Under the pieces are notes generated by a model, which did not search any database, had not been told where the DNA came from, and was given only the letters and a program-made list of their open reading frames with translations. A program made the translations under genes and the position numbers. From a bacterium (GTDB taxonomy: Bacteria; JAHJDO01), in the NCBI GenBank assembly GCA_018812485.1, contig JAHJDO010000033.1:22435-86434 (forward strand): a stretch of DNA of 64,000 bases, in the 5' to 3' direction. Of this stretch, positions 1-54,939 are shown in pieces; position 1 is the stretch's first letter; each line of letters opens with the position of its first letter.

Positions 1-665
1 TGTCCCGCATTTCCAAAGCCCTGAACTGCAAAGGTGCCTTTGGAACTAATACCACAAGCTTTGCATGCCTCTCTTACAGTAAAGACTCCTCCACGAGCTG
101 TTGCATCTCCACGTCCTTCACTGCCTCCCAATGACAGCGGTTTGCCTGTGATCATCCCTGGATGAGATTCCCCCACTATAGCCTCGTACTCATCCATCAT
201 CCAAGCCATAATTTGTGGTGTTGTGTAAACATCAGGAGCAGGTACATCTTTGTGGACGCCAATGTGAGAAGCAATAGCTCTGATATAAGCTCTTGCAAGA
301 TATTCTTTTTCCCTTTCGGACATTGTCTTAGGATTGCAAATTATACCACCTTTACCCCCTCCAAGAGGGATGTTTACAAGAGCACACTTCCATGTCATCC
401 ACGCAGCTAGAGCGCGCACAGTATCTATCGTTTCTTCAGGATGCCAGCGCACTCCTCCCTTTGTCGGACCAAGAGCCGAATTATATTGAATCCTGAATCC
501 ATGAAAGACCTTGGTAGTTCCATCATCCATCTTTACTGGAAGAGTGAACGTAAATTCCCGTTGAGGCCACCGAAGAAGCTCGTGAGCAGCCTTATTGAGA
601 CCTAACTTCTCAACAGCTTCATCTAATTGGTTCTGTGTAATTTTAAACAGATTTGTTTCAATCAT
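1..665 (-). CDS. gdhA: Glutamate dehydrogenase (Glu/Leu/Phe/Val dehydrogenase family), N-terminal ~221 codons; gene continues past the window start
   Basis: Minus-strand translation from the ATG at 665 (RBS AAGAGGAG upstream) reads [24 protein letters not shown]...GGVRWHPEE...[21 protein letters not shown], which contains the glycine-rich catalytic-lysine loop of the GDH family. There is no stop before position 1, so it is absent from the ORF track. Confidence 0.7.
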
Positions 666-2165: not shown

Positions 2166-3687
2166 AAATGTTCTTAGGATATTGGTCCCGATATTCATCG
2201 GGATGGCTGCTGTTATATCAGGTGGAATTTGTTTCTCTGAGGATTTATGGACAGGAGCTATATCAAAAATAACAGTAACAGATATTGATAGCGAGACATC
2301 GAAAATAGATATGGTGCTTGATAAAAACGAAGAAAATAATATTTCATTCGATCAATCAAAAACAATATCCATAGAAACTGGTCAATTAGAGAGAAAAACA
2401 AAAATCTATCTGGACGGAGTGAATCCAGCAAAGAAAGCAGGTTTTTGTCATAAAAAAGACAAGCTTATATCTGAGCTAAAGATATCCAGAATTTCAGGAA
2501 GTATTTCAAATCCGAGCATACAGGCAACGAATGATGGAGCTCCTGTATTTTCTACGCTGATTGATATAATTACAAATAAAACGGTAATTGTTAATATTGT
2601 TAGCAAGGAGAAAAATGGAGATGTTGAAATTACAATCACAATTACAGCATCTAAAGAACAAGATCTAAGCTTACAAACTCCCAGCATTATTGATATAACT
2701 TCTCAGGAGTTCGACAATCCTTTATCAAAAGAGACTGGGACAAATATTAATGAGAAAATGCTGAAGAAGATGTTACCTGATGATTTTATCACAGCCGTAT
2801 TTCCCTTACAGCATATTGATCCTGCTACAGCAAAAACAATTGTCCAAAATGAGCTCTCATCAAGAGGAATGGTACAGGTCTATCTGGACAAATCCCAGCT
2901 TATAGTAACCGATACAGTTTCATACATTAGAAGCATAGGAAAGCTTATTGAAAATATTGATATAAAAGTGCCTCAGGTACTTATTGAAGCGCGAATATTT
3001 GAAGTTAGCTATGATAAAGAAACTGAAATAGGGATTGACTGGAGCCTTGCTCGTCCGTCCGTAACTGCAACCATTGAACATACACTAAACGCAGCAGTAA
3101 AAGAAACAAGAGGAACAGAACTTATAGTAAGGGGCCTTTTAGGAGACCGCTACAAAAGAGATGCTCTTTTTGCAACAATAGATGCTCTTGTCAGCGAAGG
3201 TAAGGCAAAGATAGTTGCGCGGCCAAAGGTGGTTGTTCTCAATAATCAGAAAGCAATTATCACATCTGGAGATAATATACCTTATAGAAAAGAAAACTAT
3301 GATAATAGAGGAGCAGGAGTAGGAGCAGGGACACAATATTTTGTAACTGATTTTCTGCAGACAGGTATAACCTTGACTGTTACCCCGCATGTCAGAAATA
3401 ATGATCTTATTGTTTTAAATGTGAAACCAGAAGTAAAATATATCATTGGATATAAAGGTGAATATGATATGCCTGTTTTCAGCACAAGATCAACGGACAC
3501 AGTTGTTAGCGTGAAAAATGGCGATACTCTGGTTATAGGCGGGCTCTTTAAAGAGGGCAAAAAGACTATTGAACACGGTATTCCTCTATTAAAAGATATT
3601 CCAATACTGGGATATTTGTTTAAGCATAAAAGAGATATTAATATTAAGACAGAAGTGGTCATATGCATAACAACAACACTGATTTGA
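2155..3687 (+). CDS. Outer-membrane secretin (type II secretion / type IV pilus GspD/PilQ family)
   Basis: 510 aa; RBS GGAGG; N-terminal hydrophobic segment. Secretin-domain hallmarks VPQVLIEARIFEVSYDKETEIGIDWS and C-terminal GDTLVIGGLFKEGKKTIEHGIPLLKDIPILGYLFKHK...TEVVICITTTLI. Confidence 0.85.
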   Translation: MLNKNVLRILVPIFIGMAAVISGGICFSEDLWTGAISKITVTDIDSETSKIDMVLDKNEENNISFDQSKTISIETGQLERKTKIYLDGVNPAKKAGFCHKKDKLISELKISRISGSISNPSIQATNDGAPVFSTLIDIITNKTVIVNIVSKEKNGDVEITITITASKEQDLSLQTPSIIDITSQEFDNPLSKETGTNINEKMLKKMLPDDFITAVFPLQHIDPATAKTIVQNELSSRGMVQVYLDKSQLIVTDTVSYIRSIGKLIENIDIKVPQVLIEARIFEVSYDKETEIGIDWSLARPSVTATIEHTLNAAVKETRGTELIVRGLLGDRYKRDALFATIDALVSEGKAKIVARPKVVVLNNQKAIITSGDNIPYRKENYDNRGAGVGAGTQYFVTDFLQTGITLTVTPHVRNNDLIVLNVKPEVKYIIGYKGEYDMPVFSTRSTDTVVSVKNGDTLVIGGLFKEGKKTIEHGIPLLKDIPILGYLFKHKRDINIKTEVVICITTTLI

Positions 3688-5132
3688 AGAACGCAAGAGT
3701 TCGTTTTGCTCCATCCCCAACAGGTTCCCTTCACCTTGGCAATGTAAGAACTGCTATATTCAACTGGCTCTTCGCAAGACACGCAAAAGGCACCTTCATA
3801 CTGCGCATGGAGGACACAGACAAAGAACGTTCAACTCCTGAATCAGTAAGTTTAATACTTGAAAGCTTAAGATGGCTTGGACTGGACTGGGATGAGGGGC
3901 CTGATGTTGGAGGAGATTTTGGTCCTTATTATCAGATGCAAAGACTGGATAAATATAAAAAGTACATAGATATATTGATTAAGGGAAATATGGTTTATCC
4001 CTGTTTCTGTACTTCTGAGAGACTTGCAGAGATGAGACTACAGATGCAGAAGCAAAAATTGCCGCCCAGATATGACGGTAAATGCAGGAATTTAAGCAAA
4101 GAAGAAATAGAGCATCTAATATCTCAGGGCACAAAACATGTTCTGCGATTCAAAGTTCCCGCTGCCGGCATTACAGAATTTAAAGATCTCATTCACGGAG
4201 GAATATCTATTGATAACTCAGTTCTGGATGATTTTATTATTGTTAAATCCGATGCTGGTCCGACGTATAACTTTGCATGTGTAGTTGATGACATTGAGAT
4301 GAAGATAACTCATGTTATAAGAGGGGATGACCATATCTCAAACACGCCGAAACAGATTGCTGTATACAAGGCATTAGGAATTACTTCCCCTGTATTTGCG
4401 CATATTCCTTTAATTCTCGGTCCTGATAAGGCAAAATTGAGCAAACGCCACGGAGCAGCTTCCCCTCTTGAATATAGAGATATGGGCTATCTTCCTCATG
4501 CATTACTTAACTTTCTTACCCTGCTTGGCTGGGCTCCCGGAGATAACCGTGAAGTTATGAGCAGGGATGAAATTATAGAGAGCTTTTCAATAGAAAAGAT
4601 AAATGACAGAAATGCTGTTTTTGACAGCCAGAAGCTTGATTGGATGAATGGAGTATATATAAGAAAAATGCCTCTGAAAAAACTTGTAGGCATTGCTTTG
4701 GAAGAATTAAAGAAGGCGAAGCTTATAAAAGATACCAAGGAAGTTGATATTAATAAAACAACCAAAATAGTTGGACTAATCCAGGAACGTCTCAAAAAAT
4801 TCTCTGAAATTCCCCAACTTATAAATTACTTTTTTATGGATACTCCGATATATGAGGAGAAAGCAGTTAATAAGTTCTTAAAAAAAGATGGTGTTTCAGA
4901 AATGCTGCAGGAGTTAGGCAGAGTAATAGAAGGAGTAAAATCATTTGATATAGAAACACTTGAGAGCGTAGTAAGAGCATTTATTGAGAAAAAAGGACTG
5001 AAGCCGGGAGATGTCATTCATCCTGTAAGAGTTGCACTTACCGGCCGCGCTGCCAGCCCGCCAATATTTGACGTAATGAATGTTCTGGGAAAACAAACCT
5101 GCCTGAAAAGAATCAAAAAGTTTTTAAAATAA
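3663..5132 (+). CDS. gltX: Glutamate--tRNA ligase
   Basis: 489 aa; class I HIGH-type motif PSPTGSLHLGNVRTA; KMSKS-type motif KLSKR; Zn-binding CFCTSERL...C region. Confidence 0.95.
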   Translation: MHNNNTDLKNARVRFAPSPTGSLHLGNVRTAIFNWLFARHAKGTFILRMEDTDKERSTPESVSLILESLRWLGLDWDEGPDVGGDFGPYYQMQRLDKYKKYIDILIKGNMVYPCFCTSERLAEMRLQMQKQKLPPRYDGKCRNLSKEEIEHLISQGTKHVLRFKVPAAGITEFKDLIHGGISIDNSVLDDFIIVKSDAGPTYNFACVVDDIEMKITHVIRGDDHISNTPKQIAVYKALGITSPVFAHIPLILGPDKAKLSKRHGAASPLEYRDMGYLPHALLNFLTLLGWAPGDNREVMSRDEIIESFSIEKINDRNAVFDSQKLDWMNGVYIRKMPLKKLVGIALEELKKAKLIKDTKEVDINKTTKIVGLIQERLKKFSEIPQLINYFFMDTPIYEEKAVNKFLKKDGVSEMLQELGRVIEGVKSFDIETLESVVRAFIEKKGLKPGDVIHPVRVALTGRAASPPIFDVMNVLGKQTCLKRIKKFLK

Positions 5133-5186
5133 AAAGGGTCAAGTCTTTATTGAGGTTGCAGGTAATTTGGGGTAGGGTAGTATTAA
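5130..5186 (+). repeat. Copy 1 of a ~57-bp direct repeat (AAAAAGGGTCAAGTCTTTATTGAGGTT-GCA-GGTAATTTG-GG-GTAGGGTAGTATTAA) immediately 5' of the cupin gene
   Basis: About 54 of 57 nt identical to copy 2 at 5565..5620. Contains a possible sigma70-like TTGCAG-16-TAGTAT. Confidence 0.8.
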
Positions 5187-5216
5187 AGTATAAGTGGTTG
5201 TTATATGGAGGAAAAC

Positions 5217-5534
5217 ATGAATCAAGAAGCGAAACCAGAAACTGTAAATGACTTAGTGAATTACCAAGATGAATCAGTTGTAAGTAGAACTTTAATAGAA
5301 AAAGAAACTGGAACAATAACATTGTTTGCATTTAGTAAAGGACAGGCATTAAGTGAACATACAGCTCCATTTGATGCTATGGTTTATATTCTTGATGGCA
5401 AAGCAGAAATCACAATTTCGGGTAATCCAAATACTTTAGAATCAGGTCAGATGATTGTTATGCCAGCAAATAAGCCTCATGCATTAAAGGCTACAGAAAA
5501 TTTCAAAATGTTGCTAACAATGATTCGATCATAA
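5217..5534 (+). CDS. Cupin-domain protein (small, ~105 aa)
   Basis: ATG at 5217 preceded by GGAGGAAAAC (the track start at 5205 lies inside that RBS). Cupin-like two-His/Glu region MVYILDGKAEITISGNPNTLESGQMIVMPANKPHALKA. Confidence 0.6.
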   Translation: MNQEAKPETVNDLVNYQDESVVSRTLIEKETGTITLFAFSKGQALSEHTAPFDAMVYILDGKAEITISGNPNTLESGQMIVMPANKPHALKATENFKMLLTMIRS

Positions 5535-5564
5535 CTTAATAAAATGCCTAACAATTCGCTACTA

Positions 5565-5620
5565 AAAAAGGGTCAAGTCTTTATTGAGGTTTTAGGTAAT
5601 TTGAGGTAGGGTAGTATTAA
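5565..5620 (+). repeat. Copy 2 of the ~57-bp direct repeat, immediately 5' of the 142-aa hypothetical gene
   Basis: AAAAAGGGTCAAGTCTTTATTGAGGTTTTAGGTAATTTGAGGTAGGGTAGTATTAA, followed by RBS AGGAGG and the ATG at 5636. Confidence 0.8.
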
Positions 5621-5635
5621 GAGGAGGAATATTGA

Positions 5636-6064
5636 ATGCTAGAACAACCTGTTCCAAAAGCAAATGCAATGCTAATTTGTGATTCTGTTATTACTGATAA
5701 GCATACAAACAAAAAAAGTCTAATTGGAGTTTTTGAAGATATTAATGCCTCTAAATTTCCATGTGTGCATCATTCCCTAGCTGTATATATAAAACTTACA
5801 GATGCGAGAGGAAAATATAGATTTCGCCTGGAATTAGTAGATTTAGAAGAGAATCTTATAATTAGGAAGACAGAGTTGCCACAAGATATAAGCATCAATA
5901 ATCCACTTGGAACTTATGACCTTGTTATTAACTTTGGCGGATTAACGTTTAAGCATGCCGGTGAATATGACTTTAGGATGTTTGCAAATAATAAAATTTT
6001 TGAACAGAAGAAGTTTTCCGTGAAGCAAATACAAATAAAGAAATTACCAGAAAAAGGGTATTAG
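5636..6064 (+). CDS. Hypothetical protein (142 aa, no recognisable motif)
   Basis: Strong RBS AGGAGGAATATTGA before the ATG; long clean ORF; function unknown. Confidence 0.45.
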   Translation: MLEQPVPKANAMLICDSVITDKHTNKKSLIGVFEDINASKFPCVHHSLAVYIKLTDARGKYRFRLELVDLEENLIIRKTELPQDISINNPLGTYDLVINFGGLTFKHAGEYDFRMFANNKIFEQKKFSVKQIQIKKLPEKGY

Positions 6065-6158
6065 AATTAAAAACGACTCATCACCCTTTTCCCCAAATAC
6101 CTCAACAACACTTGTTGATCTCGTTGACAAAATTCTTGCTCTCACCAAATCTACAGAT

Positions 6159-6200
6159 AACCGCCAGCTAAAGCAGGCGGTTGCGATGGAGCGATTTTTT
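6159..6200 (+). terminator. Possible intrinsic terminator after the 142-aa gene
   Basis: AACCGCC-N10-GGCGGTT hairpin (6159..6182) with a T6 run at 6195..6200. The T-run is 12 nt from the stem, so this is only a weak call. Confidence 0.25.
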
Positions 6201-6204
6201 CGGC

Positions 6205-6233
6205 TTGACAAAAGTCACTCTAGTTGCTATTTT
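6205..6233 (+). promoter_or_regulatory. Sigma70-like promoter of the hrcA operon
   Basis: TTGACA (6205-6210), a 17-bp spacer, TATTTT (6228-6233); the CIRCE element begins 11 bp downstream. Confidence 0.45.
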
Positions 6234-6243
6234 ATGCTTAAGT

Positions 6244-6270
6244 TTAGCACTCTCAGCTTTAGAGTGCTAA
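6244..6270 (+). promoter_or_regulatory. CIRCE element (HrcA operator), perfect inverted repeat
   Basis: TTAGCACTC-TCAGCTTTA-GAGTGCTAA matches the CIRCE consensus TTAGCACTC-N9-GAGTGCTAA exactly. Sits 13 nt upstream of the hrcA GTG start. Confidence 0.9.
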
Positions 6271-6282
6271 AAAAGGAGTAAA

Positions 6283-7338
6283 GTGATTAAAAAAACAGTA
6301 GGCGTCAACAGGGAAGCCGATATCTTAAAGGCGGCAATTCATTCGTATATTGATACTGCAGAGCCTATTGCTTCCCAAAAACTGGTTAAGACTTATAAAT
6401 TAAACATATCATCAGCTACTGTCAGGAATGTTTTGGTAAAATTGGAAGAGCAAGGCTACCTGATACAGCCTCATACTTCTGCAGGCAGAGTCCCTACCGA
6501 TAAAGGGTACCGTTTTTATGTTAAATTTCTTATAGAAACAGAGTTGCTTACAAGTGAAGAAAGGAACTTTATAGATGATGCATATTCAAGTATTAATTAT
6601 GATATTGAGTCAATAATTAAAGAAACAACAAAGATGCTGTCTTTTATAACCAATTATATGGGATTTGCAGAACTGCCAAGATTTCATGATAGTGGAACAT
6701 TCAAACATTTAGAGCTTATAGCCCTTCAGGGTCACAGAATTATGATTATTATTATTATGAATTCAGGAGACATGAAAAAAAAGGTAGTTTGTTTTAGGGA
6801 TGAAGTATCTGGCGCTGATCTGCAAAGAATATGCGCATTTCTAAATGAAAATCTGGAAGGACTTGACTTTACTCATATCCGTTCAGATTTTAAGGAGATT
6901 TTTAAAGAAAAATCTTTTCATCTTGATAAAATAATATATAACTGTGTGCTGTCCATACTGGATGTAATCCTTTCTTTTGAGGAAGAAAAGAAAGTTTTCA
7001 TTGATGGCTATGAGTATCTTATGCAGTATCCGGAATTTAGGGATATTAATAAAGCACAGGCTGTGTTCAAGGCATTGAATGCAAGGTATTTATCTAAAAT
7101 TCTTAATATGCCCATTGATAGCAAGGAATGCATAAAAGTTCTTATTGGCAGGGAAACAGCTGATAGTGATATAGAAAATTGTAGTTTACTTACGGTAAGA
7201 TATAGCTTATTTAGATCCCCGATGGGATCATTGGGCATAATAGGTCCCAGAAGAATGGCATATTCAAAAGTAATAAGTAAATTAAATTATACTGCGTGCA
7301 AACTTAGTGATATTATGAAAAAGCTCTTGCTTGAATAG
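6283..7338 (+). CDS. hrcA: Heat-inducible transcription repressor HrcA
   Basis: 351 aa; GTG start with RBS GGAG; N-terminal winged helix (...SQKLVKTYKLNISSATVRNVLVKLEEQGYLIQPHTSAGRVPTDKGYRFYV) typical of HrcA; followed by grpE-dnaK-dnaJ. Confidence 0.9.
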   Translation: MIKKTVGVNREADILKAAIHSYIDTAEPIASQKLVKTYKLNISSATVRNVLVKLEEQGYLIQPHTSAGRVPTDKGYRFYVKFLIETELLTSEERNFIDDAYSSINYDIESIIKETTKMLSFITNYMGFAELPRFHDSGTFKHLELIALQGHRIMIIIIMNSGDMKKKVVCFRDEVSGADLQRICAFLNENLEGLDFTHIRSDFKEIFKEKSFHLDKIIYNCVLSILDVILSFEEEKKVFIDGYEYLMQYPEFRDINKAQAVFKALNARYLSKILNMPIDSKECIKVLIGRETADSDIENCSLLTVRYSLFRSPMGSLGIIGPRRMAYSKVISKLNYTACKLSDIMKKLLLE

Positions 7339-54767: not shown

Positions 54768-54832
54768 TTTTCACCTCCATAAAAAAATCTGCTCCATTCA
54801 GGAACAGATTAAAACCAATTCTAATTTATTTT

Positions 54833-54915
54833 CCGTTCCCTACGCGGGTATTATCCCAACAGGTTCAAGGGGTCTTCCGAATACTTTCGGAACTCTCAGC
54901 TCTACGCTCCCCCAG
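54833..54915 (-). ncRNA. TPP riboswitch (THI element) in the thi4-thiC-thiL leader
   Basis: Minus-strand RNA reads CUGGGGGAGCGUAGAGCUGAGAGUUCCGAAAGUAUUCGGAAGACCCCUUGAACCUGUUGGGAUAAUACCCGCGUAGGGAA. It carries the conserved CUGAGA and ACCC-UUGAACCUGxUxGGxUAAUxCCxGCGxAGGGA cores. About 65 nt separate it from the thi4 ATG. Confidence 0.85.
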
Positions 54916-54939
54916 ATTTTTATTATAATTCTTTTATGA

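What the first reader, a model, noticed from the sequence alone, without database searches (positions are those of the whole stretch)
5130..5620. Duplicated ~57-bp leader element upstream of two unrelated small genes, next to the heat-shock operon
AAAAAGGGTCAAGTCTTTATTGAGGTT...GGTAATTTG..GTAGGGTAGTATTAA occurs twice, at 5130-5186 and 5565-5620, with about 54 of 57 nt identical. Each copy lies just before a strong RBS and ATG, one for the cupin and one for the 142-aa unknown. Conservation extends about 25 nt upstream of any plausible -35. That suggests a shared regulator operator or a structured 5'-UTR rather than only a promoter. The location immediately upstream of the CIRCE/hrcA operon suggests a stress regulon.
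Basis: seen in the sequence. Interest (0 to 1): 0.5.

Follow-up and report, generated by a model that had tools for sequence, protein, structure and literature searches.

The report
Reused promoter-leader in a variable island
The duplicated 56-bp element is real, but it is not a stress-regulon operator or a folded RNA: it is most likely a reusable promoter/leader module that heads swappable accessory genes in a variable island inserted between gltX and hrcA in an uncultured bacterial lineage.

Summary
The repeat is real: window 5131-5186 and 5565-5620 are 53/56 identical, same strand, 434 bp apart, and nothing like it occurs in shuffles. I call it E.

E has no other copy in the 64-kb window. 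I also found none in about 250 kb of related DNA outside this one locus, in the viral contigs, or as true hits in the metagenome scan.

In related genomes (HrcA 82-90% identical) E recurs only between gltX and hrcA. It is always on the coding strand, 15-117 nt upstream of the start of seven unrelated genes.

One relative has an empty site, with the gltX stop overlapping the hrcA -35. The region is therefore an inserted, variable island.

The cargo is far more conserved than the core genes: cupin 99.7-100% and DUF6941 95-99% nucleotide identity, against 84-91% for core genes. That indicates recent exchange.

The nine E copies share a 41-nt core, TTGAGG-N17-TAGGGT-AGTATTAA.

E does not fold, shows no covariation, matches no Rfam family and contains no CIRCE.

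Best reading: a propagated promoter plus a C-poor leader, a "putative mobile promoter". The exact hexamers and the sigma factor are unproven. This is ordinary-to-moderately interesting.

The parts
5131..5204 (+). E copy 1. The 56-nt repeat is 5131-5186. A leader extension to about 5204 is shared with the copies upstream of cupin and other genes in L007 and L008. It starts inside the gltX stop codon.
5565..5620 (+). E copy 2. It is truncated at ...GTATTAA and fused directly to the RBS of DUF6941.
5146..5186 (+). Conserved 41-nt core of E copy 1, TTTaTTGAGgtTttaGgtAaTTTGaggTagGGTagTATTaA. It has 24 columns invariant across the 9 distinct copies. Favoured hexamers are -35 TTGAGG 5150-5155 and -10 TAGGGT 5173-5178, which is an inference.
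5580..5620 (+). Conserved core of E copy 2. Putative -35 TTGAGG 5584-5589 and -10 TAGGGT 5607-5612. The predicted +1 is about 5619-5620, which is the junction with the DUF6941 cassette.
5217..5534 (+). Cupin_2 gene, 105 aa, with RBS GGAGG at 5207-5211. It is cargo: 99.7-100% nucleotide identity with L007 and L008. It is also found at 91% nucleotide identity without E in an unrelated context (L027).
5636..6064 (+). DUF6941 gene, 142 aa, with RBS GAGGAGG at 5621-5627. It is cargo. In L008 and L018 the same gene has a different upstream region with TTGTAA-16-TACAAT instead of E.
6068..6191 (+). Block B, a recurrent C-rich 3' module of the island. It contains the palindrome TCAACAAcacTTGTTGA and the hairpin AACCGCC..GGCGGTT followed by a T-run. 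It is probably a terminator or insulator placed before hrcA.
3663..5132 (+). gltX, the left core flank of the island.
6205..6270 (+). hrcA promoter (TTGACA-17-TATTTT, 6205-6233) and CIRCE (6244-6270), the right core flank. In the empty-site genome L024 the gltX stop codon lies inside this -35.

Best explanation
E is a propagated expression module: a promoter plus a short, C-poor, unstructured 5' leader. It stands in front of accessory genes in a variable island inserted between the 3' end of gltX and the hrcA promoter.

The conserved 41-nt core most likely supplies a -35 (TTGAGG), a 17-nt spacer and a -10 (TAGGGT, TATGGT or TACGGT). Transcription would then start near the end of ...GTATTAA. 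The G/A/U-rich leader that follows (AGUAGAAGUGG..., and in five copies ..UAGUGAUUAAUGUUAG) keeps the RBS unpaired.

The two copies in this window exist because gene units were stacked at this hotspot.
- E1 drives the captured cupin gene.
- E2 originally headed a different downstream unit: FRG in L008, a 187-aa gene in L007.
- A deletion or recombination at the TATTAA(A)G / TATCAAAG microhomology then fused E2 to the RBS of DUF6941. This replaced the gene's own promoter at its predicted +1.

Block B at the 3' end probably terminates these transcripts before hrcA.

Shown: the repeat, its restriction to the island, its position and orientation before seven unrelated genes, the empty site, the excess identity of the cargo, and the lack of RNA structure.

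Inferred: promoter activity, the identity of the hexamers, the transcription start, the deletion history, and the terminator role of B.
For: - Nine distinct E copies occur in five island variants: window, L007, L008/L009, L018 and L020. All are on the gene strand and lie 15-117 nt upstream of cupin, DUF6941, a 187-aa gene, FRG, a 125-aa gene, a trypsin-like gene and a 145-aa gene.
- The invariant columns all fall within one 41-nt core. The flanks on both sides vary or are replaced.
- The island is an insertion. The site is empty in L024 and L021 keeps a gltX-tail remnant.
- The contents differ in every genome.
- The cargo is 95-100% identical at the nucleotide level against 84-91% for gltX, hrcA, grpE and dnaK.
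- Elsewhere the cupin gene travels without E. In L027 homology starts at the RBS. So E is supplied by the locus and not by the gene.
- In L008 and L018 DUF6941 has a consensus-like promoter, TTGTAA-16-TACAAT, whose -10 ends 7 nt before the point where the window sequence switches to E2. E2's TAGGGT sits at the same distance.
- E has 2-3 C in 56-74 nt and no stable fold.
- The pair meets the published operational definition of a putative mobile promoter (PMC3488235).
Against: - The favoured hexamers match the sigma-70 consensus in only 7 of 12 positions, and the promoter scan did not flag E.
- In L018 the -10 reads TGGGGT, losing the conserved A.
- Better-scoring -10-like hexamers lie just upstream of E in two cases: CTGAAA-16-TAAAAT at window 5103-5130 and TTGAAG-17-TAAAAT at L020 4671-4699. 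No terminator separates gltX from E1. E could therefore be only a transcribed leader.
- No transcript data were available.
- The sample is small, nine copies from a few genomes that exchange DNA, so the conservation pattern is weak evidence of selection.
Confidence: 0.55

Rival explanations
1. E is purely a transcribed 5' leader or intercistronic element. It would be read from upstream promoters or from gltX read-through. It would act at the RNA level as an unstructured, SD-like-rich (UGAGGU x2, AGGUA) ribosome landing or standby region, or as a binding site for a protein or sRNA.
For: - E shows extreme strand asymmetry, with 23 G against 3 C in E1, and no stable fold.
- It always lies in the sense orientation close to an RBS.
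- -10-like hexamers sit immediately upstream of E in the window and in L020.
- There is no terminator between gltX and E1.
- A further leader motif, UAGUGAUUAAUGUUAG, is conserved in five copies.
Against: - The sequences immediately upstream of E differ between copies and share no common -10.
- E2 in the window lacks the whole downstream leader yet keeps the core.
- No known RNA family matches.
Confidence: 0.2
2. E, possibly together with block B, is a recombination or attachment site of an unrecognised cassette-capture system. The duplication would be the footprint of cassette integration, analogous to integron attI/attC sites.
For: - The array has small single-gene units of about 430 bp in the window.
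- Direct repeats flank the cupin unit.
- The cargo is near-identical between species and differs between genomes.
- B contains, in inverted orientation, the box TTGTTGAGG, which resembles E's TTATTGAGG. The E versus reverse-complement-B local alignment is reached by only 12 of 500 shuffles.
- Truncated B copies break inside the same hairpin.
Against: - E has no inverted-repeat structure.
- The last unit of an array is not followed by E. E always lies 5' of genes and never 3' of the terminal one.
- The ends of the 100%-identity cupin tract fall at non-equivalent positions of E1 and E2, roughly E positions 65 and 29. This does not fit a single crossover point.
- No integrase or transposase was called in any of the fetched island loci.
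- The TTRTTGAGG excess is weak, with 5 of 100 shuffles reaching it.
Confidence: 0.1
3. E is the operator or promoter of a dedicated regulator or alternative sigma factor. One candidate is a sigma-B/SigF-type general stress promoter, reading (G)GTTTTA-N14-GGGTA(G/A). This would be the first reader's stress-regulon idea in a modified form.
For: - Most copies read GTTTTA-N14-GGGTAG or GGGTAA. From my own knowledge this is close to the Bacillus/Listeria sigma-B and mycobacterial SigF consensus, GTTTAA-N12-15-GGGTAT.
- The internal direct repeat TTGAGGT-N10-TTGAGGT could be a regulator site.
- The match to sigma-70 is poor.
Against: - The -35-like part is among the variable columns: GTTGCA in w1, ATTTTG in L020. 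The -10-like part degrades to GGGTGG in L018.
- No copies occur outside this island, so there is no regulon.
- No sigma-factor signature was found in the DNA held, although the regex search was crude.
- E carries no CIRCE.
Confidence: 0.08
4. E has no function of its own. It would be a hitch-hiking remnant duplicated by local recombination in a fast-rearranging island.
For: - E is restricted to one locus.
- The copies within a genome are near-identical, as expected for recent duplication.
- The locus is full of other rearrangement scars: truncated B copies, hairpin insertions and CGCAATGAC-type repeats.
Against: - E keeps a consistent orientation and distance to seven different start codons.
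- The same 41-nt core is retained in copies whose flanks are replaced on both sides, in genomes with only 82-87% HrcA identity.
Confidence: 0.07

Closest known systems
Putative mobile promoters (PMPs; Matus-Garcia, Nijveen & van Passel 2012, PMC3488235)
   Same: A stretch of at least 50 nt with at least 80% identity lies in the promoter region of non-homologous genes, and the upstream genes are also non-homologous. Family size of 2 is the commonest class. Copies are shared between related species. Like the example in that paper, conservation runs from close to the start codon to about -100.
   Different: All copies sit in one variable island, stacked head-to-tail with their cargo, rather than dispersed around the chromosome. 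The module is paired with a recurrent 3' block (B). Promoter activity is untested, as it is for most PMPs.
Integron gene-cassette arrays (attI/attC, IntI)
   Same: A tandem array of small, mostly single-gene units of unrelated function. The units differ between close relatives and are shared between species. A repeated sequence lies at unit boundaries.
   Different: The repeat lies 5' of the genes and looks like a promoter/leader, not a 3' imperfect palindrome. It has no attC-type structure, there is no integrase nearby, and the terminal unit lacks the repeat. Breakpoints are not at one crossover point.
Promoter-carrying intergenic repeats such as Neisseria Correia elements and other MITE/REP-type repeats (own knowledge)
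   Same: A short non-coding repeat that can supply expression signals to whatever gene lies downstream.
   Different: E has no terminal inverted repeats, no target-site duplication and no genome-wide dispersal. It has two copies in 64 kb, both at one locus.
Accessory-gene and defence hotspots between conserved core genes ('defence islands')
   Same: The gltX-hrcA interval is empty in one relative and filled with different small genes in others. These include matches to PADLOC candidate defence families: FRG = PDC-S15 and RhuM/Fic = PDC-S23/S05.
   Different: The two genes in this window, cupin and DUF6941, match no defence model. The distinctive feature here is the standardised 5' (E) and 3' (B) non-coding modules around the cargo.

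Membership tests
Putative mobile promoter (PMC3488235) | Two upstream regions, within about 150 nt of the start codon, align over more than 50 nt at 80% identity or better | tested here: met
   56 nt at 95% identity. The copies end 30 nt and 15 nt before the start codons. The definition was read.
Putative mobile promoter (PMC3488235) | Downstream CDSs are not homologous | tested here: met
   Cupin_2 against DUF6941. BLASTP E = 14.
Putative mobile promoter (PMC3488235) | Upstream CDSs are not homologous | tested here: met
   The upstream gene of E1 is gltX (tRNA-synt_1c) and that of E2 is the cupin.
Putative mobile promoter (PMC3488235) | Actually initiates transcription | not testable with these tools
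   No transcript data were available. It needs 5'-RACE, dRNA-seq or a reporter.
Sigma-70 housekeeping promoter | TTGACA-16..18-TATAAT with at least 9 of 12 matches | tested here: not met
   The scan of 4900-6400 does not flag E. The best reading, TTGAGG-17-TAGGGT, matches 7 of 12 but keeps T1, A2 and T6 of the -10.
Structured cis-regulatory RNA / riboswitch | Match to a curated RNA family | tested here: not met
   At the Rfam gathering threshold the window has only a TPP riboswitch, at 54818-54923. At E <= 1 on 5000-6400 the only hit is a chance YenS match at 17 bits, outside E.
Structured cis-regulatory RNA / riboswitch | Fold more stable than shuffles, and pairs supported by covariation | tested here: not met
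   z = +1.33 and +1.25 on the + strand. Alifold gives -0.57 kcal/mol and 0 compensatory pairs in 9 copies.
HrcA/CIRCE heat-shock regulon | CIRCE inverted repeat TTAGCACTC-N9-GAGTGCTAA in the regulatory region | tested here: not met
   At up to 3 mismatches the only match in the window is 6244-6270, upstream of hrcA. There is none in E.
Integron cassette / attC | Recombination site is an imperfect inverted repeat lying 3' of every cassette ORF | tested here: not met
   There are no inverted repeats in 4900-6400. E always lies 5' of genes and is absent after the terminal unit, as with the L008 125-aa gene and the window DUF6941.
Integron cassette / attC | Adjacent tyrosine-recombinase integrase | tested here: not met
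   No recombinase Pfam family appears among the called genes of the fetched island loci L007, L008, L018 and L020. The test covers only about 10 kb of flank.
MITE / REP-type dispersed repeat | Terminal inverted repeats and many dispersed copies | tested here: not met
   E has no terminal inverted repeats. There are two copies in the window at up to 3 mismatches. The 22-mer occurs only at this locus in the one GTDB representative genome that has it. nhmmer finds no copy outside the island in about 250 kb.
Sigma-B/SigF-type promoter (consensus from own knowledge) | GTTTAA-N12-15-GGGTAT, and a cognate group-3 sigma factor in the genome | tested here: inconclusive
   GTTTTA-N14-GGGTAG or GGGTAA is present in most copies but degraded in w1, L018 and L020. 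No sigma-factor signature was found in the DNA held, by a crude regex. Whole genomes were not available.

The most novel reading that the evidence does not exclude
E (5') and B (3') are the standard ends of a previously undescribed, integrase-less or unknown-recombinase gene-cassette system. In a deep-branching uncultured lineage it would capture foreign genes at the gltX/hrcA junction and give each one a ready-made promoter/leader and terminator. It would be a functional analogue of an integron in which the repeated boundary element is the expression signal itself. The shared TTRTTGAGG box, direct in E and inverted in the palindrome of B, would be the site of the protein that mediates capture or control.
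Probability: 0.1. Interest if true: 0.6.

Novelty: new member of a known kind. Interest (0 to 1): 0.3.

Why it matters
If E is confirmed as a portable promoter/leader, it would be a clean natural example of how horizontally acquired genes get expressed. The cupin gene here circulates among several phyla at about 90% identity, and the locus rather than the gene supplies a standard expression module. It would also provide a first usable promoter/leader part for a lineage with no cultured member. The finding removes a false lead, because the element is not part of the heat-shock regulon. The wider observation is a hotspot with standard 5' and 3' modules and cargo exchanged between species. That would matter more if a dedicated capture mechanism exists, but present evidence does not require one.

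Tried and rejected
- **Structured RNA:** rejected on single-sequence folds of both strands, alifold on 9 copies, and Rfam at the gathering threshold and at E <= 1.
- **Dispersed regulon motif:**
  - Searches of each half at 3 mismatches and of a degenerate 24-position core at 3 mismatches found only the two copies in the window.
  - The genome-collection scan of the 22-mer found only the orthologous locus of one MAG.
  - The metagenome scan of the 20-mer gave only chance hits inside an ABC-ATPase gene, L004-L006.
  - Two viral scans gave nothing.
  - The scanned 22-mer and 20-mer lie in the upstream part that later proved dispensable, so diverged copies elsewhere could have been missed.
- **CIRCE/HrcA control of E:** rejected.
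- **Integron-like attC:** rejected on structure, position and breakpoints.
- **E and B as terminal inverted repeats:** the local alignment is only marginal, with 12 of 500 shuffles reaching it, and the TTRTTGAGG excess is weak. I left this as an unexplained lead.
- **E as the cupin gene's native promoter:** rejected. The closest cupin elsewhere (L027, 91% nucleotide identity) has no E, and homology starts at the RBS.
- **Sigma factor in the DNA held:** a regex for sigma region 2 found nothing, which is uninformative.
- **Literature on DUF6941:** none found.
- **** failed on a malformed reference and was repeated.
Full report
**1. The observation**

The repeat finder reports one direct-repeat family of 56 nt, 5131-5186 and 5565-5620, 53/56 identical and 434 bp apart. 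It finds no inverted repeats in 4900-6400. Either half of the element matches only these two places in the 64-kb window at up to 3 mismatches, and none of 100 shuffles gives a match.

Copy 1 begins inside the gltX stop codon. It is followed by GGAGG (5207-5211) and ATG 5217 of a 105-aa Cupin_2 protein. Copy 2 is followed directly by GAGGAGG and ATG 5636 of a 142-aa protein, which Pfam assigns to DUF6941. The two proteins are unrelated. hrcA-grpE-dnaK follows, with a TTGACA-17-TATTTT promoter and a perfect CIRCE at 6244-6270. The identical arrangement occurs in two Logan assemblies. A near-identical one occurs in an NCBI MAG and in two JGI contigs, so the arrangement is real. I call the element E.

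**2. Is it a folded RNA or a known RNA?**

No.
- The sense strand of both copies folds less well than shuffles (z = +1.33 and +1.25), and the antisense strand is unremarkable.
- An alignment of nine distinct copies has a consensus energy of -0.57 kcal/mol and no compensatory pair.
- At the Rfam gathering threshold the window has only a TPP riboswitch far away. At E <= 1 nothing overlaps E.
- E is strikingly C-poor, with 3 C in 74 nt and 2 C in 56 nt. That explains the lack of structure.

**3. Is it a dispersed regulon motif?**

No copy was found outside this locus.
- A 22-mer from E occurs in only one genome among the 185,579 species representatives, and there only twice, at the orthologous locus.
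- A 20-mer scan of JGI metagenomes gave only chance hits inside an ABC-ATPase gene.
- Viral contigs gave nothing for the 20-mer or for a degenerate pattern of the 24 invariant core positions.
- That degenerate pattern, at up to 3 mismatches, finds only the two copies in the window.
- nhmmer with an E profile finds no copy outside the island in about 250 kb of DNA from this lineage.

One caveat applies. The 22-mer and 20-mer lie in the part of E that later proved dispensable, so diverged copies elsewhere in those collections could have been missed.

**4. What the locus is**

HrcA of the window has relatives at 81-100% identity, then nothing above 39%. All are named only 'bacterium'. This is an isolated, uncultured lineage. 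I fetched the hrcA neighbourhoods of these relatives, which gave the layouts below.

| Locus | Layout between the flanks |
|---|---|
| Window | gltX, E-cupin, E-DUF6941-B, hrcA |
| L007 | gltX, E-cupin, E-six small ORFs-B, RhuM/Fic, hrcA |
| L008 | gltX end, B12-binding + 210-aa gene, E-cupin, E-FRG + two ORFs-B', DUF6941-B, E'-125-aa gene, hrcA |
| L018 | gltX, ferredoxin, E-trypsin-like-B', DUF6941-B, RhuM/Fic, hrcA |
| L020 | different left flank, then E-145-aa + 198-aa genes-B, hrcA |
| L024 | gltX directly followed by hrcA |

B is a second recurrent block of about 125 nt, at window 6068-6191.

In L024 the gltX stop codon (TGA) lies inside the hrcA -35 TTGACA. L021 keeps an 85-nt gltX 3' remnant fused to the hrcA promoter in the same way. 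The gltX-hrcA junction is therefore the ancestral state. Everything between, including both E copies, is an inserted, variable island.

The proximity of E to the heat-shock operon is thus a property of an insertion hotspot, not of regulation. E contains no CIRCE.

**5. Cargo is exchanged**

Between the window and L007, L008 or L018, the core genes are 84-91% identical at the nucleotide level. These are the secretin gene, gltX, hrcA, grpE and dnaK. The island parts are much more similar.

| Segment | Nucleotide identity |
|---|---|
| Core genes | 84-91% |
| Cupin | 99.7-100% |
| DUF6941 | 94.8-98.6% |
| B | 93-98% |

A sliding comparison with L007 shows about 89% identity across E1. It rises to 99-100% from about 5195, just before the cupin RBS, through the cupin gene and the spacer and into the left part of E2.

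The cupin belongs to a family that is 90-93% identical in protein sequence in MAGs labelled Aegiribacteria, NPL-UPA2, Cloacimonetes, Victivallales and others. In one such genome (L027) the gene is 91% identical in DNA from its RBS to about 17 nt past the stop. There it sits behind a dihydrolipoyl dehydrogenase gene and has no E or B. The cupin is therefore a captured, horizontally circulating gene, and E belongs to the locus rather than to the gene.

Some cargo in sister islands matches PADLOC candidate defence families: FRG = PDC-S15 and RhuM/Fic = PDC-S23/S05. The two genes in this window match none.

**6. Anatomy of E**

Nine distinct copies align. All 24 invariant columns fall within a 41-nt core, TTTaTTGAGgtTttaGgtAaTTTGaggTagGGTagTATTaA (window 5146-5186 and 5580-5620).

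- They are identical only among the recently related copies.
- They are diverged, with an insertion, in L018.
- They are replaced altogether by a GC hairpin plus GAAATTAAA in L008c and L020.

Downstream, most copies continue AAGTAGAAGTGG. Five then carry (T)TAGTGATTAATGTTAG before their RBS.

Every copy is on the gene strand, 15-117 nt before the called start of a different gene.

The best sigma-70-like reading is TTGAGG, invariant except for one TTGAGA, followed by 17 nt and then TAGGGT, TATGGT or TACGGT. It matches only 7 of 12 positions and the consensus scan did not flag it. In L018 the -10 reads TGGGGT.

Other readings exist.
- TAGTAT or TAATAT, or TATTAA, as the -10.
- A sigma-B/SigF-like GTTTTA-N14-GGGTA(G/A), compared with the consensus from memory only.
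- An internal direct repeat, TTGAGGT-N10-TTGAGGT.

None of these can be decided from sequence.

**7. How the second copy came to head DUF6941**

In L008 and L018 the same DUF6941 gene is preceded by about 100 nt containing TTGTAA-16-TACAAT, not by E. The scan flags this at 9 of 12.

The window sequence switches from E2 to the DUF6941 unit between ...GTATTAA and GAGGAGG. In L008 that point lies 7 nt after TACAAT (TACAAT AATATCA | AAGAGGAGG). In the window it lies 7 nt after TAGGGT (TAGGGT AGTATTA | AGAGGAGG).

In L007 and L008, E2 heads other genes and continues AAGTAGAAG.. . The simplest history is a deletion or recombination at the TATTAA(A)G / TATCAAAG microhomology in an L008-like ancestor. 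That event would have replaced the DUF6941 promoter with E2 at the predicted transcription start. This preserved geometry is the best internal support for TAGGGT being the -10, but it remains an inference.

**8. Block B**

B folds better than shuffles on the + strand (z = -2.66). Its hairpin AACCGCC..GGCGGTT is kept in all complete copies. In the window and in L020 the outer stem is followed by a T-run just before the hrcA promoter. I read it as a terminator or insulator, although the simple terminator scan did not flag it on the + strand.

B also holds a perfect palindrome, TCAACAAcacTTGTTGA. Its left half, read on the other strand, is TTGTTGAGG, which resembles E's TTATTGAGG.
- The E versus reverse-complement-B alignment is reached by 12 of 500 shuffles.
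- TTRTTGAGG occurs 5 times in the window against 1.6 expected, and 5 of 100 shuffles reach that.

This is suggestive but weak, and I leave it unexplained.

**9. Interpretation**

The best-supported explanation (about 0.55) is that E is a propagated promoter-plus-leader module. It is supplied by the island to whatever cargo sits behind it, and B closes the unit.

| Rival | Confidence | Main evidence for or against |
|---|---|---|
| E is only a transcribed leader | about 0.2 | Supported by its C-poverty, by -10-like hexamers just upstream in the window (5103-5130) and in L020, and by the absence of a terminator after gltX |
| E (with B) is a recombination site of a cassette-capture system | about 0.1 | Contradicted by the lack of inverted repeats, its 5'-only position, non-equivalent breakpoints and no nearby recombinase |
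| E is an alternative-sigma or regulator site of a stress regulon | about 0.08 | There is no regulon, and the key positions are variable |
| E is a functionless remnant | about 0.07 | Contradicted by the retained core and the consistent geometry |

**10. Comparison with known things**

The pair meets every sequence criterion of 'putative mobile promoters' (PMC3488235). These are more than 50 nt at 80% identity or better, upstream of non-homologous genes, with non-homologous upstream genes. That paper found more than 4000 such families in 1043 genomes, so the kind is known and common.

E differs in being confined to one hotspot, stacked with its cargo, and paired with a standard 3' block. It is not an integron, a MITE or REP element, a riboswitch, or a CIRCE site. 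The membership table lists the tests for each.

**11. Verdict**

It is wrong on the structured UTR, on the significance of the upstream conservation, and on the stress regulon.

Novelty: a new member of a known kind. Interest is about 0.3. Most of that comes from the island architecture and the inter-species exchange of cargo, not from the duplicated element itself.

Noticed in passing
window 6068-6191 (also L007 13434-13564, L008 3970-4079 and 4612-4744, L018 8121-8195 and 8731-8849, L020 5840-5964): Block B is a C-rich, roughly 125-nt non-coding module that recurs at the 3' side of island units. It is 93-98% identical between genomes whose core genes are 84-91% identical. It contains a perfect 7-3-7 palindrome and a conserved hairpin. 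Truncated copies break inside the hairpin loop.
   Followed up: partly
window 6100-6108 (-) versus 5147-5155 and 5581-5589 (+): The box TTRTTGAGG occurs directly in both E copies and inverted in B's palindrome. The E versus reverse-complement-B alignment is reached by only 12 of 500 shuffles. This could be a shared protein-binding site, or chance.
   Followed up: partly
L024 3600-3640 and L021 5413-5495: In the empty-site relative the gltX stop codon TGA lies inside the hrcA -35 (TTGACA). In L021 an 85-nt gltX 3' remnant is still fused to the hrcA promoter, but it is preceded by two tRNA-like sequences and spoVG. This shows a rearrangement at the same junction.
   Followed up: partly
window 5217-5534; L027 4032-4379: The small cupin is 90-93% identical in protein sequence in MAGs labelled as several different phyla. 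It is 91% identical in DNA in an unrelated genomic context. It is an unusually promiscuous or strongly conserved small gene of unknown role.
   Followed up: partly
L008 2069-3172; L007 13730-14719; L018 7261-8058 and 8889-9860: Sister islands carry genes that match PADLOC candidate defence families: FRG = PDC-S15, RhuM/Fic = PDC-S23/S05, and a weak match for the trypsin-like gene to PDC-S45/RT-protease. The gltX-hrcA hotspot may act partly as a defence island.
   Followed up: partly
L008 1960-2030; L008 4740-4775; L020 4660-4695: GC-rich hairpins (CACCCCGTTAG...CTAACGGGGTA, CAACCCCCTTCGAAGGGGGTTG, TCCCCCTTTGAAGGGGGA) are inserted inside or just upstream of E copies. CGCAATGAC-containing short repeats also occur in L008, L018, L025 and L007. 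They look like small REP-like elements of this lineage.
   Followed up: no
window 54818-54923 (-): A TPP riboswitch (RF00059, 58.6 bits, above the gathering threshold) lies upstream of the gene ending at about 54767.
   Followed up: no
window 1-64000: HrcA of this organism has no relative between 81% and 39% identity in a database of 5.8 billion proteins. All close relatives are named only 'bacterium'. This is a phylogenetically isolated, uncultured lineage with about 37% G+C.
   Followed up: no
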